Positions 40,855-54,512 of a DNA stretch of 64,000 nt are shown here, piece by piece. Source of the DNA: Spirosoma fluviale (GTDB lineage: Bacteria > Bacteroidota > Bacteroidia > Cytophagales > Spirosomataceae); assembly GCA_945901025.1 (NCBI GenBank), contig CAMDJW010000003.1:107337-171336 (forward strand). Direction: 5' to 3'. The position numbers were made by a program, and so were the translations under genes. Positions within the stretch are counted from its first letter, which is position 1, and the number at the start of each line of letters is the position of its first letter. Under the pieces are notes generated by a model. That model did no database searches and was not told where the DNA came from. It saw only the letters and a program-made list of their open reading frames with translations.

Positions 40855-41018
40855 TTTCTATTTGGATTAAATATGGTGTATAAATTTATTGTTTTATTAT
40901 TAGATATAATTTCAATAAATGATTTAATTCATAAAATTGATTTAAATATTTAAAATGCATTTAATTGAAATATATTTTTATTAATTTAAATAATTCCAAT
41001 AAAATTAAATTTAAAGCC

Positions 41019-41447
41019 ATGAAAAAAGTCATTGACATATTGGCCAAAAAAGGGTCTAACGTAATTTCAGTTTCTCCTGAAGCAAAAATCATTTCAGCCT
41101 TACAGATTATGCAGGAGAAGAATATAGGTTCTGTAGTGGTGATACAAGAGGGCAAGTATATGGGTATTTTGACGGAGCGCGATTATGCTAGAAAAGTAAT
41201 TTTATTAGACAAAAACTCATCAGAAACCTCAGTAGCAGAAATTATGACGACTGATTTGCCTTTGATCGATCGAACCACCAGCCTTGAATCTTGCATGGTT
41301 ATCATGTCGGAGAAAAACATTCGATATTTACCTGTCGTGGAGGAGGGGGAACTGATGGGAATTATTTCGATCAATGATTTAATTCGATCTACGATTCAAA
41401 ATCATTTAGAAATGATCGAGTATCTCAAGAATTACATTCATACCTAA
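41019..41447 (+). CDS. Stand-alone CBS-pair protein
   Basis: GILTERDYARKVIL, IRYLPVVE.GEL.GIISINDL; likely start MKKVID (41019). Confidence 0.88.
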   Translation: MKKVIDILAKKGSNVISVSPEAKIISALQIMQEKNIGSVVVIQEGKYMGILTERDYARKVILLDKNSSETSVAEIMTTDLPLIDRTTSLESCMVIMSEKNIRYLPVVEEGELMGIISINDLIRSTIQNHLEMIEYLKNYIHT

Positions 41448-42314
41448 ATGAAGACAAACAGTGACCTTAAAAAGATTTGTTTTTTAGTAAATCCACAGAA
41501 AAGTATTATTAAACCTTATTATGAATGGATTTTGGCTGAAGTAGCTGAAAAAAGACCTACATGGTTCATTCATTTATTTCATCAACAATGGCCTGCCGAC
41601 TTACAAAATTTTGACGAAGTTTGGATCATGGGGGGCGATGGTACCTTCAATTATTTTGTGAATAAATATCCCACATGCTCTATTCCCATAGGTTTATTTG
41701 AAGGGGGGACCGGAAATGATTTTCATTGGAAAGTTTTTGGCAAAATTTCAAAAAAAGAACATTTGGACCATATTTTGAATGGTCATACAGCGAGTTACGA
41801 CGCTGGACAGGTTAATGACATGATTTTTTTAAATGGGGTGGGGGTCGGCATTGAAGGGGATGTGTTAAAATCGATGCAGGCCATTCGATTTATAGGTGGA
41901 ACTTTAGGGTATTATTTGGCGGCGATACCCCAACTATTTAAATTTAAATCCTATGAGATTACCTTTGATCGCGGAGGAAAAACAATCGTTAAGAAAGTAT
42001 TTTTGTGCATGATTTTTAATTCCTCCAGAGCAGGTGGTGGATTCCATTTTTTTCCGATGGCCTCCATTCAAGATGGCGTGTTGGATATGATGTTATGCAA
42101 TCCCATAGCTGTCATTAAACGTCTTTTTTATATGCCCTTAATTCAAAAAGGCAAGCATGTGAACTATTCTTTTTTGGAATTCTCCACCATACAATCTACG
42201 AAAATTCAATGCAATCGAGTTTTATGTGCCAGTGTGGATGGAGAAGATTTAACGTCTGATACTTTTGATTTTAAAATTCTTCCTGCTAAATTCAAGTATT
42301 TTGTCCCAAATTAA
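41448..42314 (+). CDS. Diacylglycerol/lipid kinase family protein (YegS/BmrU)
   Basis: VNP, GGDGT, GGTGNDF, DG motifs. Confidence 0.88.
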   Translation: MKTNSDLKKICFLVNPQKSIIKPYYEWILAEVAEKRPTWFIHLFHQQWPADLQNFDEVWIMGGDGTFNYFVNKYPTCSIPIGLFEGGTGNDFHWKVFGKISKKEHLDHILNGHTASYDAGQVNDMIFLNGVGVGIEGDVLKSMQAIRFIGGTLGYYLAAIPQLFKFKSYEITFDRGGKTIVKKVFLCMIFNSSRAGGGFHFFPMASIQDGVLDMMLCNPIAVIKRLFYMPLIQKGKHVNYSFLEFSTIQSTKIQCNRVLCASVDGEDLTSDTFDFKILPAKFKYFVPN

Positions 42315-44033: not shown

Positions 44034-47000
44034 ATGAAATCTGTCATTGCGTTACTGTTATTTCTACCATTTTTTGCTGTTTCTCAAAATACTGATTCAA
44101 AAGATTTTGAGCAAGGCAATTTTTTCATTTCGCATTACAAAAGAGATTTTCTGAGGTCCGCGTTTGGTAATTATGTAGTACTTCAAGATAAGGAAGGGGT
44201 CATTTATGTCGGCAACGTTAGAAACGGTTTAATCGAATTTGACGGACAAAGGGTTAGACGGGTATTACAGAATGGAAAGCCGATGAGTGCTTTTGTTCGT
44301 GATGCGGAAACAGATTCAAAAAATACGATTTACGTAGGCTTTGCGGGAGTTAATTTTGGCTATTTGGAAAAAAATAAATTTGGTCAAAATGAGTATATAT
44401 CACTTTCCGATAAACTACCCAAAAAGGATGAGGTTACTTCTACCTTTTGGGGTTTAAAGGTCCATCAAGATACTTTATTTTTTCAAACAGAGAATGCGGT
44501 TTATTTATTTAAGGATAAAAAGTACTTGCGTTCATATAAGTTTAAGGATGATATTCATATTATGCTAGGTTCGCCGGATGGGGTTTATTTAAGGATATGG
44601 GGCAAGGGATTATTTAAGTATTCTGCTAAAAATGGATTTTCGGTCATCAAAGGTTCAGAAAAATTATTTGCTCAAAATCGGATTGAAGCAAATTACCAAT
44701 TGGACAACGGGGATCACCTGTTGGTTTCTCGAAACATCGGATTAATCAGGATGACGAAGAAAGGCGAATTCCTGCCTGTGAATAATCCGTATGCCAACAA
44801 ATTCGTCATTGAGGGTTTGGGTTATATTAATGATAAAGTCATGCGCAATGGCAAGATTGCCATTATTACGATGAATAAGGGCATATTATTTCTAAATCAA
44901 GATTTAAGCACAAACGCGGAGGTTGGCATAAGTTCTGGTTTAGCTGAACCTGGCTTAAGATTTGTCATGCAAGACCGTGTAGGAGATATTTGGGGAGCAA
45001 ATTCAGGAGCCACTAAAATCTCTTTTGATCCTTCTTTGACTAATTTTTCTTCCTTAAATGGAATTGTAGGTACAGTATCTGATATCATTAGGCACAAGGG
45101 AAAATTAATCATTCGAACAGGAAAAGATTTATTCCAATTTATCCCTAAAAAGTCAATTACTGAAACTTCGGTATTTAAGTCTTTGGATGTTAAAGAGTTA
45201 GGGGGTTCTTTGACTTTATTTAATGATCAAATTGTATGTACCAATAATTATTCGATTAACGCCGTTTTAAATGGGAAGAAGATTAAAATTTCAGATACCT
45301 ATCGAAGCGGTAATTCCATTCAATCTAAACTAAATCCTTCTTTATTATTTAGTAGTAACTCCGCTTATGGACTTTTGCTACATCAATTTAATGGTAAGGT
45401 CTGGAAGCAAATTAAAATTATTGGTGGGGAGAAATACAATGGAAGTAATATTTCAGAGTTGGAACCAGGGAAAATTGTCCTTTCAACTCGAAAAGGGCTT
45501 GTACAATATACGTATGATCCATCGGGACAAGGTACTTTTAAGCCCCTTCCTCAGGACAAATTATTTGCTCAAACAAAGCAATTGAAAAGAATTGTTTATT
45601 TAAAAGATAACATTTTAGCCACTTGTGATTCGTCCAATAATGTTTTTATTGTGGACACCAAAGCTCAAAAACTTAGATATTCAGGCTTCAGTTTAGATGA
45701 AATGGTTTCGGGTGAACTATGGAATTATACTTATAATAAAGAAGCGGGATATGGTTGGTTAGTCTGTAAAAAAGGATTATTCAAAACTTATTTTGACTTG
45801 AAAAAAGGATTTACATTTAAAAAATACCCTTTTTATAAAGTGGATTTAGATGAGTTGAGTTACAATGTTTTACCAGAAGGAAGTGGTGATGATGAGGTTA
45901 TTTGGTTTGGTTCGCAGGAAAGCAAATTGTATCGCTACGTTCCTGCTTTGGCTTTAAAAGAACCAGCCCAACAATTTAAAGCCTTAATTCGATCGATCTC
46001 TTCCAATGGTGAGCCTGTTCCCATTGTGCCTGAAACACTTCCTTTTTCTCAAAACAACCTGGTGTTTGAAGTAGCCTATCCTTTATATGGAACAGAGAAC
46101 AAGACAACGTTTAGTTATTGGCTCGAAAATCAGGATGATACCTGGAGTGAATATATCAAGGATTTTAAAAAGGAATATACCAATTTAAGTGAAGGTACTT
46201 ATACCTTTCATGTAAGAGCCATGGACGCTAGTGGCCATGTGAGTGAGGAAACTAGCGTCAAATTTAAAATTTCTCCACCTTGGTATCGAACCATTTTTGC
46301 TTACCTAGTTTACCTAGGATTGCTAGTCTATATGTTTATTTTATTTGGAAAATACCAAGCAAAAAAATCAAGAGGTAAGGCAGAGGATGAGCGTAGGATT
46401 GCTGAATTAGAGGCGGCAAAGGATCTGCAAAATAGAATGTTGCCTAAAATCTTGCCTAAGGTGGACGGCTTAGATATAGCTAGTTACTTACAAACATCAT
46501 CAGAAGTAGGTGGTGATTATTACGACTTTCATCCTCAACCAGATGGTAGTTTGGTCGCAGTTTGTGGCGACGCGACCGGACATGGAACGGCAGCGGGTAT
46601 GTTGGTGTCCATCACCAAAGCCGGTTTAATCGGTCTTCCTCTAGATGAACCTAATAAAATGCTGTATGACTTAAACCGACTTGTTAAAAAAGTGGATTTG
46701 GGGATTTTAAGAATGAGTTTAAATATCGTTCATTTCAAAAAGAACAAATTGAAACTTAGTTCCGCGGCTATGCCACCGTGTTATTTATATGTAGCCAAGA
46801 CGAAGAAGATTGAAGAAATACAAATCAGTGGTTTGCCTTTAGGTGGATTGTATGGGGCTACTTTTGATATGGAAGAACGCTCATTTTCAAAAGGAGATAT
46901 TTTTGTTATTGCTTCGGATGGTTTACCAGAAGCGCCTAACTTAAAAGGAGAGCAGTTGGGTTATCAGGCTGTTGAAGATTGTATTTTAGCCAGTGCAGAA

Positions 47001-47108
47001 AAATCTGCCACAGAAATTAAGGATGCTTTGGTGGTATTAGGAAGTGATTGGTTGGCTGGCCAAACAACCCCTGACGATATTACGATTGTAATTATAAAAC
47101 ATGTTTGA
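44034..47108 (+). CDS. Membrane sensor PP2C/SpoIIE phosphatase (beta-propeller + Y_Y_Y + TM + SpoIIE)
   Basis: Signal peptide, YTNLSEGTYTFHVRA, TM after PPWYRT, EVGGDYYDF, GDATGHG, SDGLPEA, PDDITIV. Confidence 0.9.
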   Translation: MKSVIALLLFLPFFAVSQNTDSKDFEQGNFFISHYKRDFLRSAFGNYVVLQDKEGVIYVGNVRNGLIEFDGQRVRRVLQNGKPMSAFVRDAETDSKNTIYVGFAGVNFGYLEKNKFGQNEYISLSDKLPKKDEVTSTFWGLKVHQDTLFFQTENAVYLFKDKKYLRSYKFKDDIHIMLGSPDGVYLRIWGKGLFKYSAKNGFSVIKGSEKLFAQNRIEANYQLDNGDHLLVSRNIGLIRMTKKGEFLPVNNPYANKFVIEGLGYINDKVMRNGKIAIITMNKGILFLNQDLSTNAEVGISSGLAEPGLRFVMQDRVGDIWGANSGATKISFDPSLTNFSSLNGIVGTVSDIIRHKGKLIIRTGKDLFQFIPKKSITETSVFKSLDVKELGGSLTLFNDQIVCTNNYSINAVLNGKKIKISDTYRSGNSIQSKLNPSLLFSSNSAYGLLLHQFNGKVWKQIKIIGGEKYNGSNISELEPGKIVLSTRKGLVQYTYDPSGQGTFKPLPQDKLFAQTKQLKRIVYLKDNILATCDSSNNVFIVDTKAQKLRYSGFSLDEMVSGELWNYTYNKEAGYGWLVCKKGLFKTYFDLKKGFTFKKYPFYKVDLDELSYNVLPEGSGDDEVIWFGSQESKLYRYVPALALKEPAQQFKALIRSISSNGEPVPIVPETLPFSQNNLVFEVAYPLYGTENKTTFSYWLENQDDTWSEYIKDFKKEYTNLSEGTYTFHVRAMDASGHVSEETSVKFKISPPWYRTIFAYLVYLGLLVYMFILFGKYQAKKSRGKAEDERRIAELEAAKDLQNRMLPKILPKVDGLDIASYLQTSSEVGGDYYDFHPQPDGSLVAVCGDATGHGTAAGMLVSITKAGLIGLPLDEPNKMLYDLNRLVKKVDLGILRMSLNIVHFKKNKLKLSSAAMPPCYLYVAKTKKIEEIQISGLPLGGLYGATFDMEERSFSKGDIFVIASDGLPEAPNLKGEQLGYQAVEDCILASAEKSATEIKDALVVLGSDWLAGQTTPDDITIVIIKHV

Positions 47109-47136
47109 TCAATTATAAAACGAACGAACTAAATCT

Positions 47137-49077
47137 ATGAAAAACTTTATTTATTCATTCTTTATTTTGATTTTGGTATGTGTTGGAGGCATGAATGTAT
47201 TAAATGCCCAAAATAATTTGAATGTTAGGGATTCATTGCTTAAAATTGAGAAGACAAGTGATAAGTCTCTAAAAGCAAAAATCTATATAGGTTTAGCCGT
47301 TAATTTAATTAATAGTAAACTAGATTCATCGCTTATTTTTCTTAACAAAGCAGAAATTTTAGCCAAAGATATTAATTCAAGTGAATTGCTTGAACAAATT
47401 AATTTATTATTTGCTAATGGTGAAAATATTTATTCTGGGAATTATACATCAGCCCTTTATCATGCATTTGATGCATTGAAGTATCGGAAAATTAATTTAG
47501 ACAAGGGTAACAAAACAGCTCTTGAAAAAAATAGTGCCTTTTATTTTACAAATCCTTACAATGATCTTTATTACCAAATCGCTTACATATACGCGCACTT
47601 AGGGAATAAAGACAAATGCTTAGAGTATTTGTATAAAATGGATCCTGAGTTATTAAATTTTAACTCTGCCAAAAATGCAGAAGTAACAGTTCCAACCACC
47701 CAAAGATTAGCGCATTTAGTCGATATATTCTTATTAATTAATGATACAGGTAAAGCACAAAAGTATTTAGTTATCGCTCAAAGAAATAATAAGAAACTGC
47801 CCTATATGAAACAATGGGGGTACCCCTATATTTTGGAAGGAAATCTTAATGTGCAGATAGGTTCCTATGAAAAAGCAATCAAAGCCTATCACAATGCTAT
47901 TCCCATTCAGTTGTTTTACAAAAGGCTTAAAGGAGCTTTGGAGGCATATTATGGCATATCAGAGGCTTATTATAAACTCAATATTCCAGACTCTAGTTTG
48001 AAATATGGTAACCTATTTAATGAGCTTTCTAAAAAGTATTCTTACACCTTAGGTGCATTGAGTAATTATAAATTGTTATCCAAAGTCTACAATAGTTTGG
48101 GTCAAGATAGCCAAGCATTTTTGTATTTAAAGAAAGCAAATGATTTACGCGATAGCCTTTACAGTGAAAAGCAGGTTAATCAGGCGCAGAATTTTGCCCT
48201 TGTCGAGCAGGATAAAAATGATGCGTTGGATGAGCAAAAAGAGAAAACAAAGCTATTGATCGGAGGTATTTGTGTTTTATTTGTGTTAGCGATTTTTGTC
48301 CTATTGATGGTTCAATCAAGCGCTCAAAAGCGCAAATTTGCTAAAATAGAAGAGACTCGAAAAACAAAAGAATTAGAAGCGGCGAAAAAAATGCAGATAG
48401 GCTTTTTGCCTAAATTATTGCCAACAAACAATGATTTGGAAATAGCTACTTTTATTCGTTCTTCCACTGAAGTAGGCGGAGATTATTATGATTTTATTGT
48501 CAAGCCAGATAAAACGATTTTATCCATTTGTGGAGATGCAACCGGACATGGTGTGGCCTCAGGGATGATGGTTTCCGTGACAAAGGCTAGTTTAATCAGT
48601 ATTACAGAAACGAACATCAATTTAATCCTGAAAAAATTAAATCAAGTCATTCGTAAGATCGATTTAGGTACTTTGAGAATGAGCTTAAACATCATTGAGG
48701 TGAAAGATGACAAGATACGGATGACGTCTGCGGCTATGCCTCCGATATTTTTATACAAATCGGCTACTAAAAAAGTAGAAGAAATCATGCAAACAAATTT
48801 GCCTTTGGGTGGTCTTGGAAATGAAGATTTTGACCTGATTGAAAGGGATTTTGAGTCAGGAGATGTGGTCATTCAGTTATCAGATGGTTTGCCTGAAGCA
48901 CCGAATCCAGCTGGGGAGATGTATGATTATGATCGAGTAAAAGACCATTTAGAAGCTGTAGGGTCTAAATCTGCGGATGAAATTAAAAATTCTTTTATTT
49001 TAGAGGCGGATAAATGGCTGGATGGTTTGCATAACCCAGATGATATAACGTTTGTAATAATCAAAAAAAATAAATGA
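47137..49077 (+). CDS. Membrane sensor PP2C/SpoIIE phosphatase (TPR-like extracytoplasmic region + TM + SpoIIE)
   Basis: Signal peptide, helical TPR-like repeats, TM LLIGGICVLFVLAIFVLLM, EVGGDYYDF, GDATGHG, SDGLPEA, PDDITFV. Confidence 0.88.
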   Translation: MKNFIYSFFILILVCVGGMNVLNAQNNLNVRDSLLKIEKTSDKSLKAKIYIGLAVNLINSKLDSSLIFLNKAEILAKDINSSELLEQINLLFANGENIYSGNYTSALYHAFDALKYRKINLDKGNKTALEKNSAFYFTNPYNDLYYQIAYIYAHLGNKDKCLEYLYKMDPELLNFNSAKNAEVTVPTTQRLAHLVDIFLLINDTGKAQKYLVIAQRNNKKLPYMKQWGYPYILEGNLNVQIGSYEKAIKAYHNAIPIQLFYKRLKGALEAYYGISEAYYKLNIPDSSLKYGNLFNELSKKYSYTLGALSNYKLLSKVYNSLGQDSQAFLYLKKANDLRDSLYSEKQVNQAQNFALVEQDKNDALDEQKEKTKLLIGGICVLFVLAIFVLLMVQSSAQKRKFAKIEETRKTKELEAAKKMQIGFLPKLLPTNNDLEIATFIRSSTEVGGDYYDFIVKPDKTILSICGDATGHGVASGMMVSVTKASLISITETNINLILKKLNQVIRKIDLGTLRMSLNIIEVKDDKIRMTSAAMPPIFLYKSATKKVEEIMQTNLPLGGLGNEDFDLIERDFESGDVVIQLSDGLPEAPNPAGEMYDYDRVKDHLEAVGSKSADEIKNSFILEADKWLDGLHNPDDITFVIIKKNK

Positions 49078-49096
49078 TATTTAATAAAATGAAAAA

Positions 49097-49513
49097 ATGG
49101 ATAAACCTAAAATTGAATTAAAACTCCCGATTATAGCCAACATGGAGCTGGTGGCTATTAATACGGCTGAGGTGATTGCCAAGCACATGGATTTGAGCGA
49201 AGATAAAGCCGCTGAAATTAGTATGGCGCTTATTGAGGCATGTATAAATGCATTTGAGCACTCTCAAGCTCAAAACAATGTATTCATTCACTTTATTCTG
49301 GAAGATGACTCCTTGGTCATTAAAGTGATTGATCAAGGAATTGGCTTTGACAAATCAAAAGTCCAAATTCCAAAAATTGAAAATAAGTTGGGCACCGATG
49401 AACGTAAACGCGGCTGGGGTTTACAACTCATTAAAGAATTAATGGATTCCGTAGAGTTCGAGTCCACAAAAGAAGGTACAACCGTAACAATGACAAAAAA
49501 GAAAGAATCATGA
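49097..49513 (+). CDS. RsbW/SpoIIAB-like Ser/Thr kinase (HATPase_c_2)
   Basis: MALIEACINAFEH N-box, DQGIGFD G1, RGWGLQLIKELMD G2, GTTVTM. Confidence 0.92.
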   Translation: MDKPKIELKLPIIANMELVAINTAEVIAKHMDLSEDKAAEISMALIEACINAFEHSQAQNNVFIHFILEDDSLVIKVIDQGIGFDKSKVQIPKIENKLGTDERKRGWGLQLIKELMDSVEFESTKEGTTVTMTKKKES

Positions 49514-49851
49514 GCCAATTTAACGTTAACATACAAGAAGAGAACGATTTAGTCATTTTAATCACGGAGGGCTATTTGAATAATGAAGGAGGAGAAATGA
49601 TTTCAGGCATTTGCTACGAAAACATAGCCAATGGAAAGACCCGATTTTTATTAGACATGGCCCAGACTAAAGTGGTCAACAGTATTGGAGTTTCTATCCT
49701 GATTGAAATCATTGAAAAATTGCAAGAAGTAGATGGGAAATTAGGATACTATAATCTGGCTCCTATCGTCGACAAGACTTTTAAGATTATGGGTTTGACG
49801 AAATACTCATCCGTTTACGCAACCAAAGAAGAAGCATTAGCTGACTTTTAA
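49510..49851 (+). CDS. STAS-domain RsbV/SpoIIAA-like antagonist
   Basis: 113 aa; VVNSIGVSIL with Ser58 at the phosphoacceptor position; VDKTFKIMGL; ATGA overlap with the kinase. Confidence 0.92.
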   Translation: MSQFNVNIQEENDLVILITEGYLNNEGGEMISGICYENIANGKTRFLLDMAQTKVVNSIGVSILIEIIEKLQEVDGKLGYYNLAPIVDKTFKIMGLTKYSSVYATKEEALADF

Positions 49852-50004
49852 TTTCTTTTAAAAATAATCTTCTAATAAACTTTATTGGGGTTTATATAAT
49901 GGCTGTAATGGAATTTAAATTCTTTATGTAAAAAAGAACGTATTTTTTTGCGATCATTCATTGTATTAAATTTTGATGTAATTTAATGTGGTTAAAATAA
50001 AAAC

Positions 50005-52101
50005 ATGAATAATATTGCATTCAAACAGCTCGAATTAGAGACTTTGCTTGAAATCACCAATACCCTGATTGAACATGAGGACGTGGATGATTTATTGCAA
50101 GATATTTTAATTCGAACCTGTGGGATTTTGGATGCTTCCTGTGGTTTTGTTTTAATTGAAGAAAAGAATTCTGATTTATTTGTCCCAAAGGCCGTTTTTA
50201 ATCTGAATGAAAAAGTCCTATCGAAGATAATCTTCAATAAAAAAAGAGGCTTTTTGAATACCTTAGCTACTCAGCAAGAGAAACATTCCTGTATTCCTGT
50301 TGAGACTAATCTTCTAGAAAAATTAGAGAAATCCTTTGCCCTTGCTGCACCCATTACGGGGAAAAATCAATTGCTGGGTTCGATTATTATTTTTGATAAA
50401 GAACTCAGAAATGGCAAATCAGATTTCTCCGTGGAGGATGCCGCGATGCTTTCGGCCATATCTGTTCAGGCAAGCGTAGCTTATAACAATACCTTTTTAT
50501 TGGATACACTTTTAGAATCGAAACGCTTTAATGATAACATCATGGAGTCGATTCATACAGGTGTTATTACGACAAATTTGTTTGGGGAAATTGATTACGT
50601 CAATAAAACGGCGGTCAAAATCGCACACATTTCAGCCGAGGAATGCCTCGGCAATCATTATCAAATTGTGTTTGAGAAGGATCCTGATTTATTAATTATT
50701 TTAGAAAAGGTTGAGCAGGAAATCAGGGTTTATTCGGAACAAAACTTTTTGATCAAAGTAGGCCATGAATCGGTCAATGTAAACCTGACGATCTCGCCTT
50801 TGATCGATGATTTAGGGGAGCAAATCGGCACGGTCATTGCCATGGAGGATATCTCTTACCTCGACAAAATTAAGAGCACTTTCAAGAAATATGTATCGAA
50901 ACAGATCGTTGACAAGATTTTAGAAAATGAAGATTTATTAAATCTTGGGGGCCAAGAATTAACCCTAACTACTTTATTTACAGACATCCGTGGTTTCACC
51001 AATATGAGTGAGCGCATGGATCCGATCGATGTGGTAAAAACCTTGAATGAATATTTTGACTTGATGATCGAAGTGGTTTTTAAGTACAACGGCACCTTGG
51101 ACAAGATTATTGGTGATGCCCTGATGGTTATTTATGGTGCGCCCATCTATGGCCACGATGACACCCAAAGAGCTTTATTGACCGCCATTGAAATGCAGAA
51201 ATTGCTTATCGATTTCAATGTGCTTAGAAAGGAAAAAGGAATGGATCCCATTGAAATCGGCATAGGAATCAATCGAGGAAAGGCCATTGCCGGAAATATA
51301 GGTTCTAAGGACCAAATGAATTATACGGTGATTGGAGATGCCGTTAATTTAGCATCCCGATTATGTTCAAATGCTGGACCAGGCCAAATACTGGTTTCTG
51401 AATCCGTTGTGTCTGACGTAGATGCCTCCGGACTTTTTGATTTTCAAAAGTTGGACGCCATTAAGGTAAAAGGTAAAGAAAATGAGGTTCAGATTTATGC
51501 CCTTTCTAAATGTTTTTGTACCCCAAAGGTGTTGGAAGTATATGATTTGGTGATAACAGAGATGCTTGTCAACTTATCTCCCAATTTATTTTATCATTCG
51601 ATTTATCATACGCTCGATGTATTTACAAGTGCCCGTAAAATTGCCTTGTCAGAAGGAATAGGAGAACATGATTTAGAGCTGGTCATGGTGGCTGCACTTT
51701 TTCATGATACTGGTTTTTTAGTTCAGGCCGATGGGCATGAGGAGATTTCTTGCCAATACGCAAAGGATCATTTGTTTCATATTGGCTTTACTTTGCCTGA
51801 AATTGAAACTATTTGTGGAATGATTAGGGCCACTAAAATTCCACAAAAACCACAAAATAGATTAGAAGAAATTATCGCGGATGCGGATTTAGATTATTTA
51901 GGTCGGGATGATTTTTTTACCATTGGCGGCCAATTATTCAACGAGTTAAAAGCCAGAAATGTGGTCAACGAAGAATCTGTTTGGGATCAAATACAAATTA
52001 AATTCTTAGAAAATCATCATTATTTTACAGATACGACTCGCAATTTAAGAGCAGAGCAAAAAGAAAAACATTTACAAATTATTAAATCAAAATATTCATG
52101 A
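50005..52101 (+). CDS. GAF-PAS-class III adenylate cyclase-HD domain protein
   Basis: GAF (~15-165), PAS (~175-285), cyclase FTDIRGFT / DKIIGDALM / NYTVIGDAVNLASRL, C-terminal YHSIYHTLDV..ALFHDTG..HEE..DADL. Confidence 0.9.
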   Translation: MNNIAFKQLELETLLEITNTLIEHEDVDDLLQDILIRTCGILDASCGFVLIEEKNSDLFVPKAVFNLNEKVLSKIIFNKKRGFLNTLATQQEKHSCIPVETNLLEKLEKSFALAAPITGKNQLLGSIIIFDKELRNGKSDFSVEDAAMLSAISVQASVAYNNTFLLDTLLESKRFNDNIMESIHTGVITTNLFGEIDYVNKTAVKIAHISAEECLGNHYQIVFEKDPDLLIILEKVEQEIRVYSEQNFLIKVGHESVNVNLTISPLIDDLGEQIGTVIAMEDISYLDKIKSTFKKYVSKQIVDKILENEDLLNLGGQELTLTTLFTDIRGFTNMSERMDPIDVVKTLNEYFDLMIEVVFKYNGTLDKIIGDALMVIYGAPIYGHDDTQRALLTAIEMQKLLIDFNVLRKEKGMDPIEIGIGINRGKAIAGNIGSKDQMNYTVIGDAVNLASRLCSNAGPGQILVSESVVSDVDASGLFDFQKLDAIKVKGKENEVQIYALSKCFCTPKVLEVYDLVITEMLVNLSPNLFYHSIYHTLDVFTSARKIALSEGIGEHDLELVMVAALFHDTGFLVQADGHEEISCQYAKDHLFHIGFTLPEIETICGMIRATKIPQKPQNRLEEIIADADLDYLGRDDFFTIGGQLFNELKARNVVNEESVWDQIQIKFLENHHYFTDTTRNLRAEQKEKHLQIIKSKYS

Positions 52102-52970
52102 GTGCTCAATCAACCAAAGAAAATATCCAAGACTTTTTCTATGCTGTCGTAGGCATTTTATTTGCCGGATTTGCTTTAAAGAGTTTTTTAGTTCCTAATC
52201 ATTTTTTGGATGGGGGGGTGACCGGAGTGGCACTTTTGATTCATGAAACCTACCACATTCCCATTACGATGTTGGTCGTATTTTGTAATGTGCCATTTAT
52301 TATCATGGGCGGCTATTTAATTAGTAAAAGTTTTGCCATTCGAACCTTAATAGCCGTTATAGGTTTGGCTTTAGCCCTAACTTTTATTCCATACCCAGTC
52401 ATTACCTCTGATAAATTATTGATTTCAATTTTTGGCGGAGTATTTTTAGGGGTGGGTATTGGCTTGGGAATGAGGGGTGGTTGTGCCATCGACGGGATTG
52501 AAGTATTAGCCTTATATACCTTGAGGCGCTCCGGTTTCACCATTTCTGAAATCATTTTAGGGATCAATGTCATCTTGTTTTTAATTGCCGCGATTGGCTT
52601 AGGCATGGTTACGGCACTTTATGCCATGTTGACCTATTTTATTGCTACTCGGAGCATTGATTATGTCGTCGAAGGTTTAGAGGAATACATCGGTGTGACC
52701 ATCATTTCCAAAAACCATGAAGAAATTAAAAAGGCAGTGGTTATGCAGATGGGGAAGGGTATTACCGTATATAAAGGCGAGCGTGGCTTCATGAAAGATA
52801 GTTTTGATGTGAGTCACCCAACCGATATTTTGTATACCATTATGACGCGTTTCGAGGTGAGGCATTTACGAAATTTAGTTCTGGAATATGATGCGAATGC
52901 ATTCATTTTTACGAATATCATCAAAGAAGCAGCTGGTGGCGTATTGCTCAAAAGGAAAGGGGATCATTAG
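52098..52970 (+). CDS. YitT family membrane protein (DUF161 + C-terminal DUF2179)
   Basis: FLVPNHFLDGGVTG, GG..LGVGIGL.MRGG..IDGIE, GKGITVYKGERG, DANAFI; ATGA overlap with the cyclase gene. Confidence 0.9.
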   Translation: MSAQSTKENIQDFFYAVVGILFAGFALKSFLVPNHFLDGGVTGVALLIHETYHIPITMLVVFCNVPFIIMGGYLISKSFAIRTLIAVIGLALALTFIPYPVITSDKLLISIFGGVFLGVGIGLGMRGGCAIDGIEVLALYTLRRSGFTISEIILGINVILFLIAAIGLGMVTALYAMLTYFIATRSIDYVVEGLEEYIGVTIISKNHEEIKKAVVMQMGKGITVYKGERGFMKDSFDVSHPTDILYTIMTRFEVRHLRNLVLEYDANAFIFTNIIKEAAGGVLLKRKGDH

Positions 52971-53056: not shown

Positions 53057-53392
53057 ATGGGGATTACCAAAACCGATTTGTTTTCAAGTGAGCAAAATGC
53101 CATGGCACATATGGCTAAAGTTTTAGGACATCCGGCTCGAATAGCTATTTTACAGTATTTGGTGAAGTCAAGCTCCTGTATCAATGGGGATTTGGTTCAT
53201 GAATTGGGACTTGCCCAAGCAACTATTTCCCAACATTTACGCGAATTAAAAGAAATCGGGTTTATTCAAGGAACGATCGAAGGTGTATCTGTTTGCTATT
53301 GCATTAATCCAGAAAAATGGGCTGAATTTAGCCAACTATTTGGAGCATTCTTTGACGATTATTATACCACACAAAAATCTAACTGTTGTTAA
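53057..53392 (+). CDS. arsR: ArsR/SmtB family transcriptional regulator
   Basis: KVLGHPARIAIL, LAQATISQHLRELK, C-terminal CC; heads the arsI/arsC genes. Confidence 0.88.
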   Translation: MGITKTDLFSSEQNAMAHMAKVLGHPARIAILQYLVKSSSCINGDLVHELGLAQATISQHLRELKEIGFIQGTIEGVSVCYCINPEKWAEFSQLFGAFFDDYYTTQKSNCC

Positions 53393-53394
53393 TT

Positions 53395-53901
53395 ATGAGC
53401 TTTCCACGTATGCATGTGTCACTTTATGTCAGCAATCTTGCGGCTTCTGTGAATTTTTATTCAACTTTTTTTGGCCAGCCGGCTAACAAGGTAAAGCCAG
53501 GATACGCAAAATATATATTAGATAAGCCTTCTTTAATTATTTCATTTATCGAAAATTCAGGCCGTGTTCAATCAAATTTTGGACACCTAGGTTTTCAAGT
53601 GGAAACATTTGAGGAGATGTCTAATTTATTAGAAAAAGCACGCGCTCAAGGAATAGTATCCAAAGAGGAAATAGGTACATCATGCTGTTACGCGGTACTA
53701 GATAAATTTTGGGCTACAGATCCCGATGGTGTTCAGTGGGAAGTTTATTACTTTCATGAAGATGCCGAATTTAATGATCCACATTATGCCTTAGAAGATG
53801 CTGCCGCTTGTTGCATGCCACCAGTTTCCCAAAAAGAAAAAATAAATTTATCCGAAATAGCTACGACTAGTTCCTGTGCCCCAGGTTCAGGATGCTGTTA
53901 A
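53395..53901 (+). CDS. arsI: ArsI/CadI family VOC metalloenzyme (putative C-As lyase) with Cys-rich tail
   Basis: RMHVSL, GHLGFQV, vicinal TSCCYA, WATDPDGVQWE; tail ACC...SCAPGSGCC; start 53395. Confidence 0.8.
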   Translation: MSFPRMHVSLYVSNLAASVNFYSTFFGQPANKVKPGYAKYILDKPSLIISFIENSGRVQSNFGHLGFQVETFEEMSNLLEKARAQGIVSKEEIGTSCCYAVLDKFWATDPDGVQWEVYYFHEDAEFNDPHYALEDAAACCMPPVSQKEKINLSEIATTSSCAPGSGCC

Positions 53902-53912
53902 TTAATCATGCA

Positions 53913-54512
53913 ATGAATCATACTTTAAACGCAAATTTAGAATCAATTTTATCTCTATCTATAAGTGATGAACGTAAATCTTTGCTTCAGGAATTAATCG
54001 ATTACATCAAATCAAAGCGTGAAAAGGGCCAGCCCATCCGACTAAATTTCATTTGTACCCATAATTCTAGAAGGTCACAGTTTTCCCAAATCTGGGCGCA
54101 AACCGCTGCCGATTATTTTGAAATTCCCGCTTTTTGCTACTCGGGTGGCGTGGAAGTGACAGCATGCAATGAGCGAACGATTCATTCTTTGGAACGTTCA
54201 GGCTTTATCATTTCCAAACATGGTCACTCGAACCCAATCTATTTCATATTACATGAAAAAGACGCCAGGCCCATCATTGTCTTTTCAAAATTGTATGACG
54301 ATGTCATAAATCCCCACGGAAACTTTGCAACGATTATGACTTGTTCACATGCAGATGAAAATTGTCCTTTTATTCCTGGCGCTGAGGCAAGAATCCCCGT
54401 TCGATACGAGGATCCAAAGGAGTTTGACGATACTGATCTTGAGTCTCAAAAATATGACGAACGTTCCAAACAAATAGCCAGCGAAATGTTTTACGTTTTT
54501 TCGAGGGTTTAA
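53913..54512 (+). CDS. arsC: LMWP-fold arsenate reductase-like protein
   Basis: CTHNSRRS P-loop (CX5R), TCSHADENCP, YEDPK; start MNHTL (53913). Confidence 0.78.
   Translation: MNHTLNANLESILSLSISDERKSLLQELIDYIKSKREKGQPIRLNFICTHNSRRSQFSQIWAQTAADYFEIPAFCYSGGVEVTACNERTIHSLERSGFIISKHGHSNPIYFILHEKDARPIIVFSKLYDDVINPHGNFATIMTCSHADENCPFIPGAEARIPVRYEDPKEFDDTDLESQKYDERSKQIASEMFYVFSRV

What the first reader, a model, noticed from the sequence alone, without database searches (positions are those of the whole stretch)
44034..52970. Sigma-less partner-switching module apparently wired to a cAMP make/break enzyme (best candidate new system)
Seen: six co-directional genes encoding two membrane sensor PP2C phosphatases, an RsbW-like kinase, a STAS protein (Ser58 in VNSIG; ATGA-coupled to the kinase), a GAF-PAS-cyclase-HD protein and a coupled YitT protein. 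No sigma factor lies in or next to the locus. Known: RsbU/V/W normally gate sigma factors (Bacillus SigB/SigF), while Pseudomonas SiaA/B/C (sensor phosphatase, kinase, STAS-like protein) gate the diguanylate cyclase SiaD. Inference: this is a Bacteroidota analogue in which extracellular cues set STAS phosphorylation, which controls a class III nucleotidyl cyclase rather than a sigma factor or GGDEF enzyme. I know of no characterised example of this output. Caveat: a 153-bp gap precedes the cyclase gene.
Basis: partly seen in the sequence, partly recalled or inferred. Interest (0 to 1): 0.85.

Follow-up and report, generated by a model that had tools for sequence, protein, structure and literature searches.

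The report
Phospho-switch operon wired to adenylyl cyclase
Aquatic Bacteroidota carry a conserved operon in which membrane sensor phosphatases, a small kinase and its phospho-protein partner, parts that normally control a sigma factor, sit fused in gene order to a cAMP-making enzyme and a membrane channel-like protein, pointing to an undescribed way of turning outside cues into a cAMP signal.

Summary
The six genes are there exactly as described (44034-52970, + strand).

- **Starting from the cyclase:** 70 of 71 related genome loci with enough flank carry the kinase-STAS pair. Most have it within 0-20 nt of the cyclase start.
- **Starting from the STAS protein:** 55 of 61 metagenome loci have the cyclase directly downstream, and 4 more have it after an intervening phosphatase.

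No sigma factor is detectable in the window or in about 1.2 Mb of related loci. The catalytic and phospho-acceptor residues all look intact:
- STAS Ser58;
- the kinase N, G1 and G2 boxes;
- the PP2C metal motifs;
- the cyclase residues D327, D371, K367, T441, N448 and R452.

The K367/T441 pair predicts ATP as substrate, so the product should be cAMP.

One new result: every cyclase that carries the HD domain is followed at once by a membrane protein. It is YitT in the window's clade and a TMEM175 K+ channel homologue in Chitinophagales. Marine relatives have the HD domain as a separate gene lying next to a PycTM-like 2TM protein.

The "break" half of "make/break" is not shown. The HD domain resembles small YpgQ-type hydrolases at least as much as it resembles phosphodiesterases.

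I found no paper describing this wiring. Verdict: a real system and a new variant of partner switching; the mechanism is inferred, not demonstrated.

The parts
44034..47108 (+). Sensor phosphatase A. Layout: signal peptide, about 730-aa periplasmic region ending in a Y_Y_Y domain (the type found in Bacteroides hybrid two-component sensors), one TM (aa 751-774), cytoplasmic PP2C/SpoIIE domain (aa 836-1023).
   Evidence: Pfam SpoIIE 1.3e-25 and Y_Y_Y 2.6e-10. The periplasmic part matches HTCS sensor structures 3ott and 4a2l over the Y_Y_Y region only. The PP2C part matches Rv1364c and the SiaA PP2C domain 6k4e. Metal motifs GGDYYD (826), GDATGHG (845), SDGL (961) and PDDIT (1013) are present. 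Orthologues occur in most related loci.
47137..49077 (+). Sensor phosphatase B. Layout: signal/TM segment (aa 1-25), TPR-like periplasmic region, TM (aa 369-398), PP2C/SpoIIE domain (aa 458-643).
   Evidence: Pfam SpoIIE 1.7e-27 and weak TPR hits. It has the same four metal motifs at 447, 466, 582 and 634. Paralogues of this type occur in tandem arrays in Chitinophagales loci, where loci with at least 8 kb on each side carry 0-5 PP2C genes in all.
49097..49513 (+). RsbW/SpoIIAB-like serine kinase (138 aa, soluble).
   Evidence: Pfam HATPase_c_2 4.4e-25. Its best NCBIfam and PDB matches are RsbW and SpoIIAB. The N box EACINAFEHS (47), G1 DQGIGFD (79) and G2 RGWGL (105) are conserved in 55 distinct homologues. 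It is 67-97% identical across loci where the cyclase is only 46-50% identical. It lies directly upstream of STAS in 67 of 67 loci.
49510..49851 (+). STAS-domain phospho-protein (113 aa), with its start overlapping the kinase stop (ATGA). Ser58 is the predicted phospho-acceptor.
   Evidence: Pfam STAS 1.3e-7 and TIGR00377 2e-10. Ser58 and the block VVNSIGVSILIEIIEKLQ are all but unchanged in 63 distinct homologues; Ser58 itself is invariant. Ser58 aligns with the phospho-Ser of SpoIIAA (1th8_B).
49852..50004 (+). 153-nt AT-rich spacer between STAS and the cyclase. About 138 nt of it (49856-49993) is a lineage-specific, indel-variable insertion.
   Evidence: The spacer is -1 to 18 nt in most relatives and 84-143 nt only in the window's clade. 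Metatranscriptome contigs in 3 runs join 49855 to 49994. A DNA metagenome shows a similar deletion variant and alternative sequences at this spot. The spacer has no terminator-like hairpin, no exact TAnnTTTG box, no Rfam hit and no unusual fold. It is unique in the window.
50005..50520 (+). Cyclase N-terminal region (aa 1-172): an invariant helix (K7, L9-L15: LELETLL) followed by a divergent GAF domain with an FDKExR motif. This is the candidate docking and regulatory module.
   Evidence: Invariant columns in alignment A1. GAF families score only E about 1e-3 here but score clearly in homologues. AF2 pLDDT is 72-90 for aa 21-160. It shows weak similarity, including the FDKESR motif, to the GAF of a GAF-GGDEF protein that follows a sister kinase-STAS pair.
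50533..50856 (+). PAS domain of the cyclase (aa 177-284).
   Evidence: Pfam PAS 1.1e-11 and PAS_9 2.9e-8.
50965..51504 (+). Class III cyclase catalytic domain (aa 321-500), predicted to be an adenylyl cyclase of the Lys/Thr (class IIIb-like) type.
   Evidence: Pfam Guanylate_cyc 5.6e-31. D327, D371, K367, T441, N448 and R452 are invariant in A1. Alignment to solved cyclases shows Lys where the guanylyl cyclase Cya2 (2w01) has Glu, and Lys/Thr as in CyaB (3r5g).
51517..52098 (+). C-terminal HD metal-dependent phosphohydrolase domain (aa 505-698); substrate unknown.
   Evidence: Pfam HD 1.4e-9. The metal-ligand candidates H531, H567-D568 and D626, together with H535, H578-E579, D628 and D630, are invariant. 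The AF2 model has pLDDT 97.9. The best Foldseek matches are 2pq7, 2pjq and YpgQ, with PDE4D at TM about 0.65. It is a separate gene in Marinoscillum loci.
52098..52970 (+). YitT-family multi-pass membrane protein with a C-terminal DUF2179 domain. Its start overlaps the cyclase stop (ATGA).
   Evidence: Pfam YitT_membrane 2.9e-52 and DUF2179 1.8e-10. Several hydrophobic segments are present. All 66 HD-bearing cyclases with downstream DNA are followed at once by YitT (17) or TMEM175 (49).

Best explanation
This is one signalling operon of aquatic Bacteroidota: a partner-switching module whose output is a cyclic-nucleotide enzyme instead of a sigma factor.

**Shown by sequence and comparison**
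- One to several membrane-anchored PP2C phosphatases with large periplasmic domains, an RsbW-like kinase, a STAS protein with an invariant Ser58, and a soluble GAF-PAS-cyclase(-HD) protein are inherited together as a unit.
- The STAS and cyclase genes usually abut.
- All catalytic motifs are intact.

**Inferred mechanism**
1. The kinase keeps STAS phosphorylated on Ser58.
2. Ligand binding to the periplasmic domains changes PP2C activity and so sets the STAS-P to STAS ratio. Several phosphatases integrate several cues.
3. One phospho-form of STAS, most likely the unphosphorylated one as for SiaC and SypA, binds the invariant N-terminal helix/GAF-PAS region of the dimeric cyclase.
4. This switches synthesis of cAMP. 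The Lys367/Thr441 pair predicts ATP as substrate.

The C-terminal HD hydrolase and the translationally coupled membrane protein belong to the output side. That protein is YitT here and TMEM175 in Chitinophagales. Either the HD domain trims the nucleotide signal, or the enzyme works at or on the channel-like protein.
For: **Synteny starting from the cyclase**
- 70 of 71 genome loci with at least 1.2 kb upstream hold kinase plus STAS.
- 64 of 71 have STAS directly upstream on the same strand.
- This holds down to 46% cyclase identity.
- The distance from STAS stop to cyclase start is -1 to 18 nt in most loci.

**Synteny starting from STAS**
- The kinase is adjacent in 67 of 67 loci.
- The cyclase lies within 700 nt downstream in 55 of 61 loci, and 4 more have it after an inserted TPR protein and PP2C.

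**Linkage survives rearrangement**
- Order cyclase-YitT-PP2C-kinase-STAS in L008-L010.
- A PP2C inserted between STAS and cyclase in L011 and L012.
- HD split off as its own gene in L068-L076.

**The parts look functional**
- Ser58 is invariant, and the flanking STAS helix is conserved in at least 90% of 63 sequences.
- The kinase ATP-binding boxes are conserved.
- The PP2C metal motifs are present.
- The six cyclase catalytic residues are invariant.

**No competing output**
- No sigma factor was found in the window or in 85 loci.

**Expression**
- The locus is transcribed in lakes.
- RNA contigs from close relatives bridge the STAS-cyclase junction.

**Precedent from a sister clade**
- In one locus of a sister kinase-STAS clade the pair is followed, after a 167-aa ORF of unknown function, by a GAF-GGDEF diguanylate cyclase.
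- Its GAF shares the FDKExR motif with the window cyclase. This suggests a shared docking logic.

**Known analogues (my own knowledge, plus papers found)**
- SiaC-SiaD, HsbA-HsbD, SypA, and the Anabaena HenR module.
Against: - No interaction, phosphorylation or enzyme activity has been measured.
- I could not run a complex prediction, and the full-length AF2 model was poor (pTM 0.48).
- In the window's own clade a 153-nt spacer separates STAS from the cyclase. RNA contig depth is several-fold higher over kinase/STAS than over the cyclase, so a separate or attenuated transcript is possible there.
- Two STAS-selected loci (L146, L165) have unrelated genes downstream.
- The kinase is far more conserved than the cyclase. 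That would also fit the kinase, not STAS, being the hub that touches the output.
- The cyclase has its own GAF and PAS sensors and could be regulated without the switch.
- No cAMP receptor is encoded nearby.
Confidence: 0.6

Rival explanations
1. The kinase, not STAS, is the direct regulator. As an anti-sigma factor holds its sigma, the RsbW-like kinase binds (or phosphorylates) the cyclase and keeps it off or on. Dephosphorylated STAS pulls the kinase away, as in classical partner switching.
For: - The kinase is the most conserved protein of the module: 67-97% identity where the cyclase is 46-50% and STAS 54-75%. Several obligate binding surfaces would explain this.
- Its closest characterised relatives are true anti-sigma kinases.
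- All the synteny evidence fits this model equally well.
Against: - In the characterised sigma-less systems (SiaC, HsbA, SypA; my own knowledge and review PMC8256260) the STAS-like protein is the one that contacts the output.
- The gene that abuts or overlaps the cyclase is STAS, not the kinase.
Confidence: 0.17
2. The switch and the cyclase share an operon but not a pathway. The switch controls something else (a distal sigma or anti-sigma factor, or the YitT/TMEM175 membrane protein directly). The cyclase responds only to its own GAF/PAS inputs.
For: - The cyclase has two sensor domains of its own.
- There is a 153-nt spacer, and RNA depth is lower over the cyclase in the window's clade.
- Two STAS loci lack an adjacent cyclase.
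- The membrane protein is as tightly conserved in position as the switch.
Against: - Linkage is kept across three orders and through three kinds of rearrangement.
- STAS and cyclase genes overlap in most genomes. Such persistence is unusual for genes that are merely co-expressed.
- No sigma factor lies in about 1.2 Mb of related loci.
- HD-less marine cyclases keep the switch but lack the membrane gene, so the switch follows the cyclase, not the channel.
Confidence: 0.13
3. It is an anti-phage or abortive-infection system of the Pycsar/Pucsar kind. A cyclase makes a cyclic nucleotide that opens a membrane effector (PycTM-like, TMEM175 or YitT), with the phospho-switch acting as a safety catch.
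For: - The cyclase domain matches PADLOC PycC models (best 5.5e-22).
- Marinoscillum loci carry a full-length PycTM-like 2TM protein (2.3e-23) next to the split-off HD gene.
- A membrane protein always follows the HD-bearing cyclases.
- Cyclase plus TM-effector pairs that use purine nucleotides exist (bioRxiv 10.64898/2026.08.12.744502).
Against: - The PycC matches are weaker than the generic Pfam cyclase match (76 vs 108 bits).
- YitT, TMEM175, the kinase, STAS and the phosphatases have no PADLOC hits.
- The module is slowly evolving, and identity levels group by the taxa named in the locus records. It sits among housekeeping genes in a fixed neighbourhood within the clade: M20 peptidase upstream and an ars operon downstream.
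- Immune cyclases are reported to evolve fast.
- Periplasmic glycan-sensor-like and TPR inputs are not typical of phage sensing.
Confidence: 0.05

Closest known systems
SiaA/SiaB/SiaC/SiaD of Pseudomonas aeruginosa (partner switch controlling a diguanylate cyclase)
   Same: A membrane sensor PP2C phosphatase, a small kinase and a phosphorylatable switch protein are encoded in one operon with a nucleotide cyclase, and there is no sigma factor. The window's PP2C domains match the SiaA PP2C structure 6k4e and, weakly, the SiaA family model.
   Different: - The output here is a class III (adenylyl-type) cyclase with GAF, PAS and HD domains, not a GGDEF enzyme.
- The kinase is HATPase_c_2 (RsbW-like).
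- The SiaA equivalog score is 22 bits against a cut-off of 700, so these proteins are not orthologues.
- There are several phosphatases with different periplasmic domains.
- There is an added membrane protein.
HptB-HsbR-HsbA-HsbD pathway of Pseudomonas aeruginosa
   Same: A STAS protein (HsbA), whose phospho-state is set by a PP2C/kinase protein, binds and stimulates a nucleotide cyclase (HsbD). This is from my own knowledge.
   Different: The output there is a GGDEF cyclase. The input comes through a phosphorelay, not periplasmic PP2C sensors. HsbA also targets the anti-sigma factor FlgM. No class III cyclase is involved.
RsbU/RsbV/RsbW-SigB and SpoIIE/SpoIIAA/SpoIIAB-SigF of Bacillus
   Same: The same three protein families are involved. 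Ser58 aligns with the SpoIIAA phospho-Ser, and the kinase is closest to RsbW and SpoIIAB.
   Different: - No sigma factor is present in or near the locus.
- The gene order is kinase then STAS.
- Scores fall far below the equivalog cut-offs (64 vs 145 bits for RsbW).
- The output gene is a cyclase.
Class IIIb adenylyl cyclases CyaB (P. aeruginosa, 3r5g) and CyaC (Spirulina, 1wc0), and the guanylyl cyclase Cya2 (Synechocystis, 2w01)
   Same: The catalytic domain is 1e-27 to 1e-37 similar to these. It has the same metal Asp pair and the same Asn and Arg. The Lys/Thr substrate pair matches CyaB.
   Different: - Cya2, the closest by score, has Glu/Gly at the substrate pair and makes cGMP; the window protein has Lys/Thr.
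- None of the three is known to be encoded with a partner switch, an HD domain or a coupled membrane protein.
CAPE of Marchantia (combined adenylyl cyclase with phosphodiesterase; PMC5159850, PMC8115329, seen)
   Same: One polypeptide carries a class III cyclase together with a domain of the HD/PDE fold. This is the only described "make and break" cAMP enzyme I found.
   Different: CAPE has a bona fide class I PDE domain, at its N-terminus, and is eukaryotic. The HD domain here gives no PDEase Pfam hit and resembles YpgQ-like hydrolases at least as much.
Pycsar/Pucsar cyclase plus transmembrane-effector defence systems
   Same: A class III-fold cyclase sits next to a small membrane protein. 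A true PycTM-like protein is present in the Marinoscillum variants.
   Different: See the defence rival. The module is conserved, shows no defence-island features, carries extra GAF/PAS/HD domains and a phospho-switch, and in the window the membrane partner is YitT, which has no defence-family hit.
HenR/STAS partner-switching-like module of Anabaena (PMC13555669)
   Same: It is another recent case where a PP2C/STAS pair controls an enzyme (a glycosyltransferase) instead of a sigma factor.
   Different: The output enzyme and the phylum are different, and no cyclic nucleotide is involved.

Membership tests
Partner-switching system (RsbU/V/W type) | PP2C/SpoIIE-family Ser phosphatase with metal-binding Asp motifs | tested here: met
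   SpoIIE 1.3e-25 and 1.7e-27. Motifs GGDYYD, GDATGHG, SDGL and PDDIT are present in both proteins. Both align to the PP2C domains of Rv1364c and SiaA.
Partner-switching system (RsbU/V/W type) | Small GHKL Ser kinase (HATPase_c_2) with N, G1 and G2 boxes | tested here: met
   HATPase_c_2 4.4e-25. The boxes are conserved in 55 homologues. The nearest solved relatives are RsbW 6m36 and SpoIIAB.
Partner-switching system (RsbU/V/W type) | Single-domain STAS protein with a conserved phosphorylatable Ser/Thr at the start of helix 2 | tested here: met
   STAS 1.3e-7. Ser58 is invariant in 63 sequences and aligns with the SpoIIAA phospho-Ser.
Partner-switching system (RsbU/V/W type) | Cognate sigma factor encoded with, or targeted by, the kinase | tested here: not met
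   There is no sigma-family gene among the flanking genes. RpoE and SigB probes gave no hit in the 64-kb window or in 85 related loci (limited sensitivity). A distal target cannot be excluded.
Partner-switching system (RsbU/V/W type) | Phosphorylation-dependent exchange of binding partners | not testable with these tools
   This needs biochemistry.
SiaABCD-type switch controlling a nucleotide cyclase | Switch genes in one conserved operon with the cyclase they control | tested here: met
   70 of 71 loci starting from the cyclase and 59 of 61 starting from STAS. The genes abut in most loci.
SiaABCD-type switch controlling a nucleotide cyclase | Output is a GGDEF diguanylate cyclase; proteins orthologous to SiaA-D | tested here: not met
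   The output is Guanylate_cyc (class III), with no GGDEF hit. The SiaA model scores 22 bits against a cut-off of 700.
Class III adenylyl cyclase | Cyclase homology domain with two metal Asp residues, transition-state Asn and Arg | tested here: met
   Guanylate_cyc 5.6e-31. D327, D371, N448 and R452 are invariant in A1 and align with solved cyclases.
Class III adenylyl cyclase | Adenine-specifying pair (Lys plus Asp or Thr) | tested here: met
   K367/T441 are invariant. Lys stands where the guanylyl cyclase Cya2 has Glu, and the Lys/Thr pair matches CyaB.
Class III adenylyl cyclase | Measured cAMP synthesis | not testable with these tools
   An enzyme assay is needed.
Cyclic-nucleotide phosphodiesterase (for the HD domain) | Membership of a known PDE family (class I PDEase_I, class II, class III CpdA, HD-GYP) | tested here: inconclusive
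   - Only the generic HD family hits.
- By sequence, only 2pq7 is found.
- By fold, 2pq7, 2pjq and YpgQ come first, with PDE4D at TMq about 0.65 and E about 1e-2.
- The metal ligands are conserved.
Pycsar/Pucsar defence system | Cyclase paired with a CNBD-TIR or PycTM/3TM effector in a variable defence context | tested here: not met
   In the window, YitT has no PADLOC hit. A PycTM-like gene is present only in Marinoscillum variants. The locus is conserved and lies among housekeeping genes.

The most novel reading that the evidence does not exclude
The operon is a complete outside-to-membrane device. Several periplasmic sensor phosphatases set a STAS phospho-switch. The switch drives a bifunctional adenylyl cyclase/HD enzyme, which is physically or functionally coupled to an ion-conducting membrane protein. 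That protein is the TMEM175 K+ channel, YitT, or a PycTM-like pore, all interchangeable at the same gene position.

If so, it would be a housekeeping cousin of the cyclase-plus-membrane-effector immune systems. It would also give bacterial TMEM175 and the orphan YitT family their first functional context: cAMP- or HD-controlled membrane conductance.
Probability: 0.3. Interest if true: 0.85.

Novelty: new variant of a known kind. Interest (0 to 1): 0.68.

Why it matters
Partner switching is best known as a way to control sigma factors. A few cases control c-di-GMP cyclases or other enzymes. A class III adenylyl cyclase as the output has not, to my knowledge or in the searchable literature, been described.

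- **cAMP in Bacteroidota.** To my knowledge, cAMP signalling in this phylum has been little studied. This module is present in at least 127 matching genome stretches among 185,579 species representatives and in hundreds of lake and ocean metagenome contigs. It is also expressed in lakes.
- **A testable entry point.** It offers a route from extracellular cues to a second messenger in abundant planktonic Bacteroidota such as Aquirufa, Sediminibacterium and Marinoscillum. One of the sensor domains is of the type that Bacteroides uses to sense glycans.
- **Orphan families.** The conserved coupling to TMEM175 or YitT gives two orphan bacterial membrane-protein families a functional context. TMEM175 is the homologue of a human lysosomal K+ channel (from my own knowledge).
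- **A general rule.** A sister clade is wired to a GAF-GGDEF enzyme, which hints that STAS or kinase docking on GAF-type N-termini of nucleotide cyclases may be general.

Tried and rejected
1. **AF2 of a STAS-linker-cyclase N-terminus fusion** with a paired alignment, to test docking.
2. **AF2 of the full-length cyclase** with 16 sequences. The PAS and catalytic parts were poor (mean pLDDT 70, pTM 0.48), so it could not be used for domain packing.
3. **Identity of the HD domain.** By sequence only 2pq7 matched, at E 0.013. The fold search gave generic small HD hydrolases. No phosphodiesterase assignment was possible.
4. **Search for a cAMP receptor.** An E. coli CRP probe found nothing in the window or in 85 loci; this is a weak test.
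5. **Search for a sigma factor** with RpoE and SigB probes. None was found; this too has limited sensitivity.
6. **Regulatory features in the 153-nt gap.** I found no terminator-like site, no Bacteroidota -7 box TAnnTTTG, no Rfam family, no fold beyond shuffled controls (z = -0.2) and no repeat copy elsewhere in the window.
7. **Defence reading.** The PADLOC hits to PycC are weaker than the generic cyclase match, and the other five proteins have no hits. I therefore ranked this reading low.
8. **Literature.** Nine full-text searches covered partner switching, STAS, cyclase, Bacteroidota, TMEM175, YitT and HD-CE. They found no description of this wiring. YitT/DUF2179 function is not described in the papers found. 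Subscription-only papers are not covered.
9. **PDEase_II gene near some Chitinophagales loci.** It is present near only 5 loci, so I did not treat it as part of the module.

Full report
**1. What is in the window**

Positions 44034-52970 hold six co-directional ORFs with spacers of 28, 19, -4, 153 and -4 nt.

- **Pfam:** two SpoIIE/PP2C phosphatases, a HATPase_c_2 kinase, a STAS protein, a PAS-Guanylate_cyc-HD protein with a weak N-terminal GAF, and a YitT_membrane+DUF2179 protein.
- **Topology:** each phosphatase has an N-terminal signal-like segment, a long extracytoplasmic part, one TM helix and a cytoplasmic catalytic domain. The kinase, STAS protein and cyclase are soluble.
- **Sensor domains:** the first phosphatase ends its periplasmic part in a Y_Y_Y domain, as in Bacteroides hybrid two-component sensors. 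Homologues also score the Reg_prop propeller. The second phosphatase has TPR-like repeats.
- **Flanking genes:** oxidoreductases, a CBS protein, a YegS-like kinase and an M20 peptidase lie upstream. An ArsR-glyoxalase-ArsC set lies downstream. None is a sigma factor, and RpoE and SigB probes find none in the whole window.
- **Source organism:** a freshwater member of the Cytophagales related to Aquirufa. The cyclase is 95-96% identical to MAGs labelled Cytophagaceae and 85-88% identical to Aquirufa MAGs. A lake metagenome holds the sequence almost exactly.

**2. Do the parts look functional?**

- **STAS:** Ser58 aligns with the phosphorylated Ser of SpoIIAA. It is invariant in 63 distinct homologues, and the adjacent block VVNSIGVSILIEIIEKLQ is conserved in at least 90% of them.
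- **Kinase:** it keeps the N, G1 and G2 ATP-binding boxes and is closest to RsbW and SpoIIAB.
- **Phosphatases:** both keep the four PP2C metal motifs.
- **Cyclase domain:** both metal Asp residues, the Asn and the Arg are invariant across a 16-sequence alignment.
- **Substrate pair:** it is Lys367/Thr441. Aligned with solved enzymes, Lys stands where the guanylyl cyclase Cya2 has Glu, and the pair matches the adenylyl cyclase CyaB. The predicted product is therefore cAMP.
- **HD domain:** conserved His, Asp and Glu residues include the likely metal ligands, and the domain folds with very high confidence (pLDDT 97.9).
- **HD relatives:** its nearest solved relatives are two uncharacterised HD proteins and the NTP pyrophosphohydrolase YpgQ. 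PDE4 is a more distant fold match. Hydrolysis of cAMP is possible but not indicated over other substrates.

**3. The synteny test**

*Starting from the cyclase.* A scan of one genome per species gave 127 matching stretches, of which 80 were kept.
- Of the 71 loci with at least 1.2 kb upstream (these 80 plus the five), 70 carry both kinase and STAS. The exception is a truncated contig whose relatives have them downstream. In 64 of the 71, STAS lies directly upstream on the same strand.
- With ORFs called, the STAS stop and cyclase start are -1 to 18 nt apart in most loci. Only the window's clade has 84-143 nt.
- Linkage holds down to 46% cyclase identity and through rearrangements:
  - cyclase-YitT-PP2C-kinase-STAS in L008-L010;
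  - a phosphatase inserted between STAS and cyclase in L011 and L012;
  - kinase-STAS-TPR-PP2C-cyclase in L075;
  - the HD domain split off as a separate gene in Marinoscillum.

*Starting from the other genes.*
- Two kinase homologues looked up without reference to the cyclase gave five loci with the same order.
- A metagenome scan with a STAS alignment gave 80 loci.
- The kinase is adjacent in 67 of 67 of those loci.
- The cyclase starts within 700 nt downstream in 55 of the 61 loci with enough DNA.
- Four more loci are of the L075 type.
- Two have unrelated genes downstream.

*How discrete the family is.*
- The kinase clade collapses to essentially one 50%-identity cluster, with the next relatives at 51% or less.
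- Three contexts of those sister kinases (Calditrichota and others) again show kinase-STAS without a sigma factor. They are followed by a PP2C, by an unknown gene, or by an unknown gene and then a GAF-GGDEF diguanylate cyclase.
- The GAF of that diguanylate cyclase shares the FDKExR motif with the window's cyclase.

**4.

- All 66 HD-bearing cyclases with downstream DNA are followed immediately by a membrane protein whose gene overlaps or nearly touches the cyclase stop.
- That protein is YitT in 17 loci (the window's clade and its neighbours) and a TMEM175 homologue (Pfam 2.4e-27) in 49 Chitinophagales-type loci.
- The 11 HD-less cyclases have neither.
- In five Marinoscillum loci the separate HD gene lies tail to tail with a PycTM-like 2TM protein (PADLOC 2.3e-23).
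- So three unrelated membrane proteins occupy the place next to the HD-coding end. This argues that a membrane partner belongs to the output. How it belongs is unknown.

**5. Transcription**

- Lake metatranscriptomes contain contigs covering all the genes from phosphatase B to YitT.
- Contigs in three runs join 49855 to 49994, bridging STAS and cyclase in close relatives that lack 138 nt of the spacer.
- DNA metagenomes show a similar deletion and alternative sequences at the same spot, so the spacer is a strain-variable insertion.
- The spacer has no terminator-like hairpin, no Bacteroidota -7 box, no Rfam match and no unusual structure.
- Contig depth is several-fold higher over kinase/STAS than over the cyclase. 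That is a weak hint of attenuation or a second start in this clade; contig depth is a poor measure of expression.

**6. How it most likely works**

*Shown:* a co-inherited, co-oriented and mostly translationally coupled set of intact phosphatases, kinase, STAS, cyclase(-HD) and membrane protein, with no sigma factor.

*Inferred by analogy with characterised switches* (SiaABCD, HsbA-HsbD, SypA/SypE, Bacillus Rsb/SpoII; my own knowledge):
1. The kinase phosphorylates Ser58.
2. The sensor phosphatases remove the phosphate in response to periplasmic ligands.
3. One STAS form binds the cyclase, probably at its invariant N-terminal helix/GAF, and changes cAMP synthesis.

*Rivals:*
- The kinase may be the direct regulator. 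Its extreme conservation fits that.
- The switch may act on another target.
- It may be a defence system of the Pycsar/Pucsar kind. I rate this low because the module evolves slowly and sits in a fixed housekeeping neighbourhood, and only the generic cyclase domain hits defence models.

**7. Comparison and novelty**

- The system works like SiaABCD or HsbA-HsbD but is not a member of those families. The output is class III, not GGDEF, and family models score far below their cut-offs.
- It meets the three protein-family criteria of a partner switch and fails the sigma-factor criterion.
- The cyclase is a member of class III with an adenylyl-type substrate pair.
- Nine full-text searches found no description of a partner switch wired to a class III cyclase, of this GAF-PAS-cyclase-HD family, or of a cyclase-TMEM175 or cyclase-YitT link. 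The library lacks most subscription papers, so this is not proof of absence.
- I class it as a new variant of a known kind.

**8. Limits**

- Everything beyond gene content, conservation and expression is inference.
- Most loci come from metagenome-assembled genomes whose taxon labels are unreliable.
- The sigma-factor and CRP searches used single probes.
- I could not run complex prediction, and the full-length model was poor.

Noticed in passing
L083-L085, L018-L067 (e.g. L083:12890-13558): In Chitinophagales-type loci a 220-aa TMEM175 homologue (Pfam 2.4e-27, with the TM1 motif RISFFTDGVFAIAITLLV) overlaps the 3' end of the cyclase gene by about 20 nt. It occupies the place that YitT has in the window.
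   Followed up: yes
L068:7873-8979; also L069, L071, L074, L076: In Marinoscillum loci the cyclase lacks the HD domain. A stand-alone HD gene lies upstream of the switch, tail to tail with a 170-aa PycTM-like 2TM protein (PADLOC PycTM 2.3e-23). That is a family known from anti-phage Pycsar systems.
   Followed up: partly
window 49856-49993: A 138-nt AT-rich segment of the STAS-cyclase spacer is absent or replaced in closely related strains, in both RNA and DNA metagenome contigs. It is unique in the window and has no recognisable promoter, terminator or RNA family.
   Followed up: partly
L033:12815-20352, L042, L047, L057, L060: Some Chitinophagales loci carry tandem arrays of two to four TPR-PP2C sensor phosphatase paralogues downstream of TMEM175, in addition to the upstream one. 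These loci have up to five PP2C genes each.
   Followed up: partly
L010:13221-20006: One locus has two consecutive PP2C-kinase-STAS triplets whose kinase and STAS copies give the same percent identity and E-value to the window proteins, plus a STAS fragment. This is either a recent tandem duplication or an assembly artefact.
   Followed up: no
L083:1825-2805 (- strand); also L033, L048, L084, L085: A class II cAMP phosphodiesterase homologue with a signal peptide (PDEase_II 4.1e-41) lies on the opposite strand upstream of the cyclase: about 0.8 kb before the first phosphatase gene in L083, and 7-9 kb before the cyclase across these five Chitinophagales loci. It is too sporadic to count as part of the module.
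   Followed up: partly
L088:8001-10934: A sister-clade kinase-STAS pair (about 50% identical kinase) is followed by a 167-aa low-complexity protein and then a GAF-GGDEF diguanylate cyclase. An HD-family protein lies two genes further on.
   Followed up: partly
L077:1546-2046, L111, L120: In some marine HD-less loci a second, shorter cyclase-like gene lies directly upstream of the kinase, so the switch is flanked by two cyclases.
   Followed up: no
L041 and L051; L054 and L063: Two MAGs each contribute two different contigs carrying the module. Either these genomes have two copies or the bins mix strains.
   Followed up: no
window 40965-42314: A CBS-pair protein (with a weak DisA-type DAC hit, below cut-off) abuts a YegS/diacylglycerol-kinase-like gene with no spacer (stop at 41447, start at 41448). 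This pair and the M20 peptidase are conserved upstream of the module in close relatives.
   Followed up: no
window 53057-54512: An ArsR-family regulator, a glyoxalase-fold protein and a low-molecular-weight phosphatase/ArsC-like protein form a tight co-directional set just downstream. It is probably an arsenic-resistance operon and is conserved in close relatives.
   Followed up: no
window 55067-57898: A 943-aa protein combines a glucose/sorbosone dehydrogenase propeller, a PKD domain and a cytochrome c domain.
   Followed up: no
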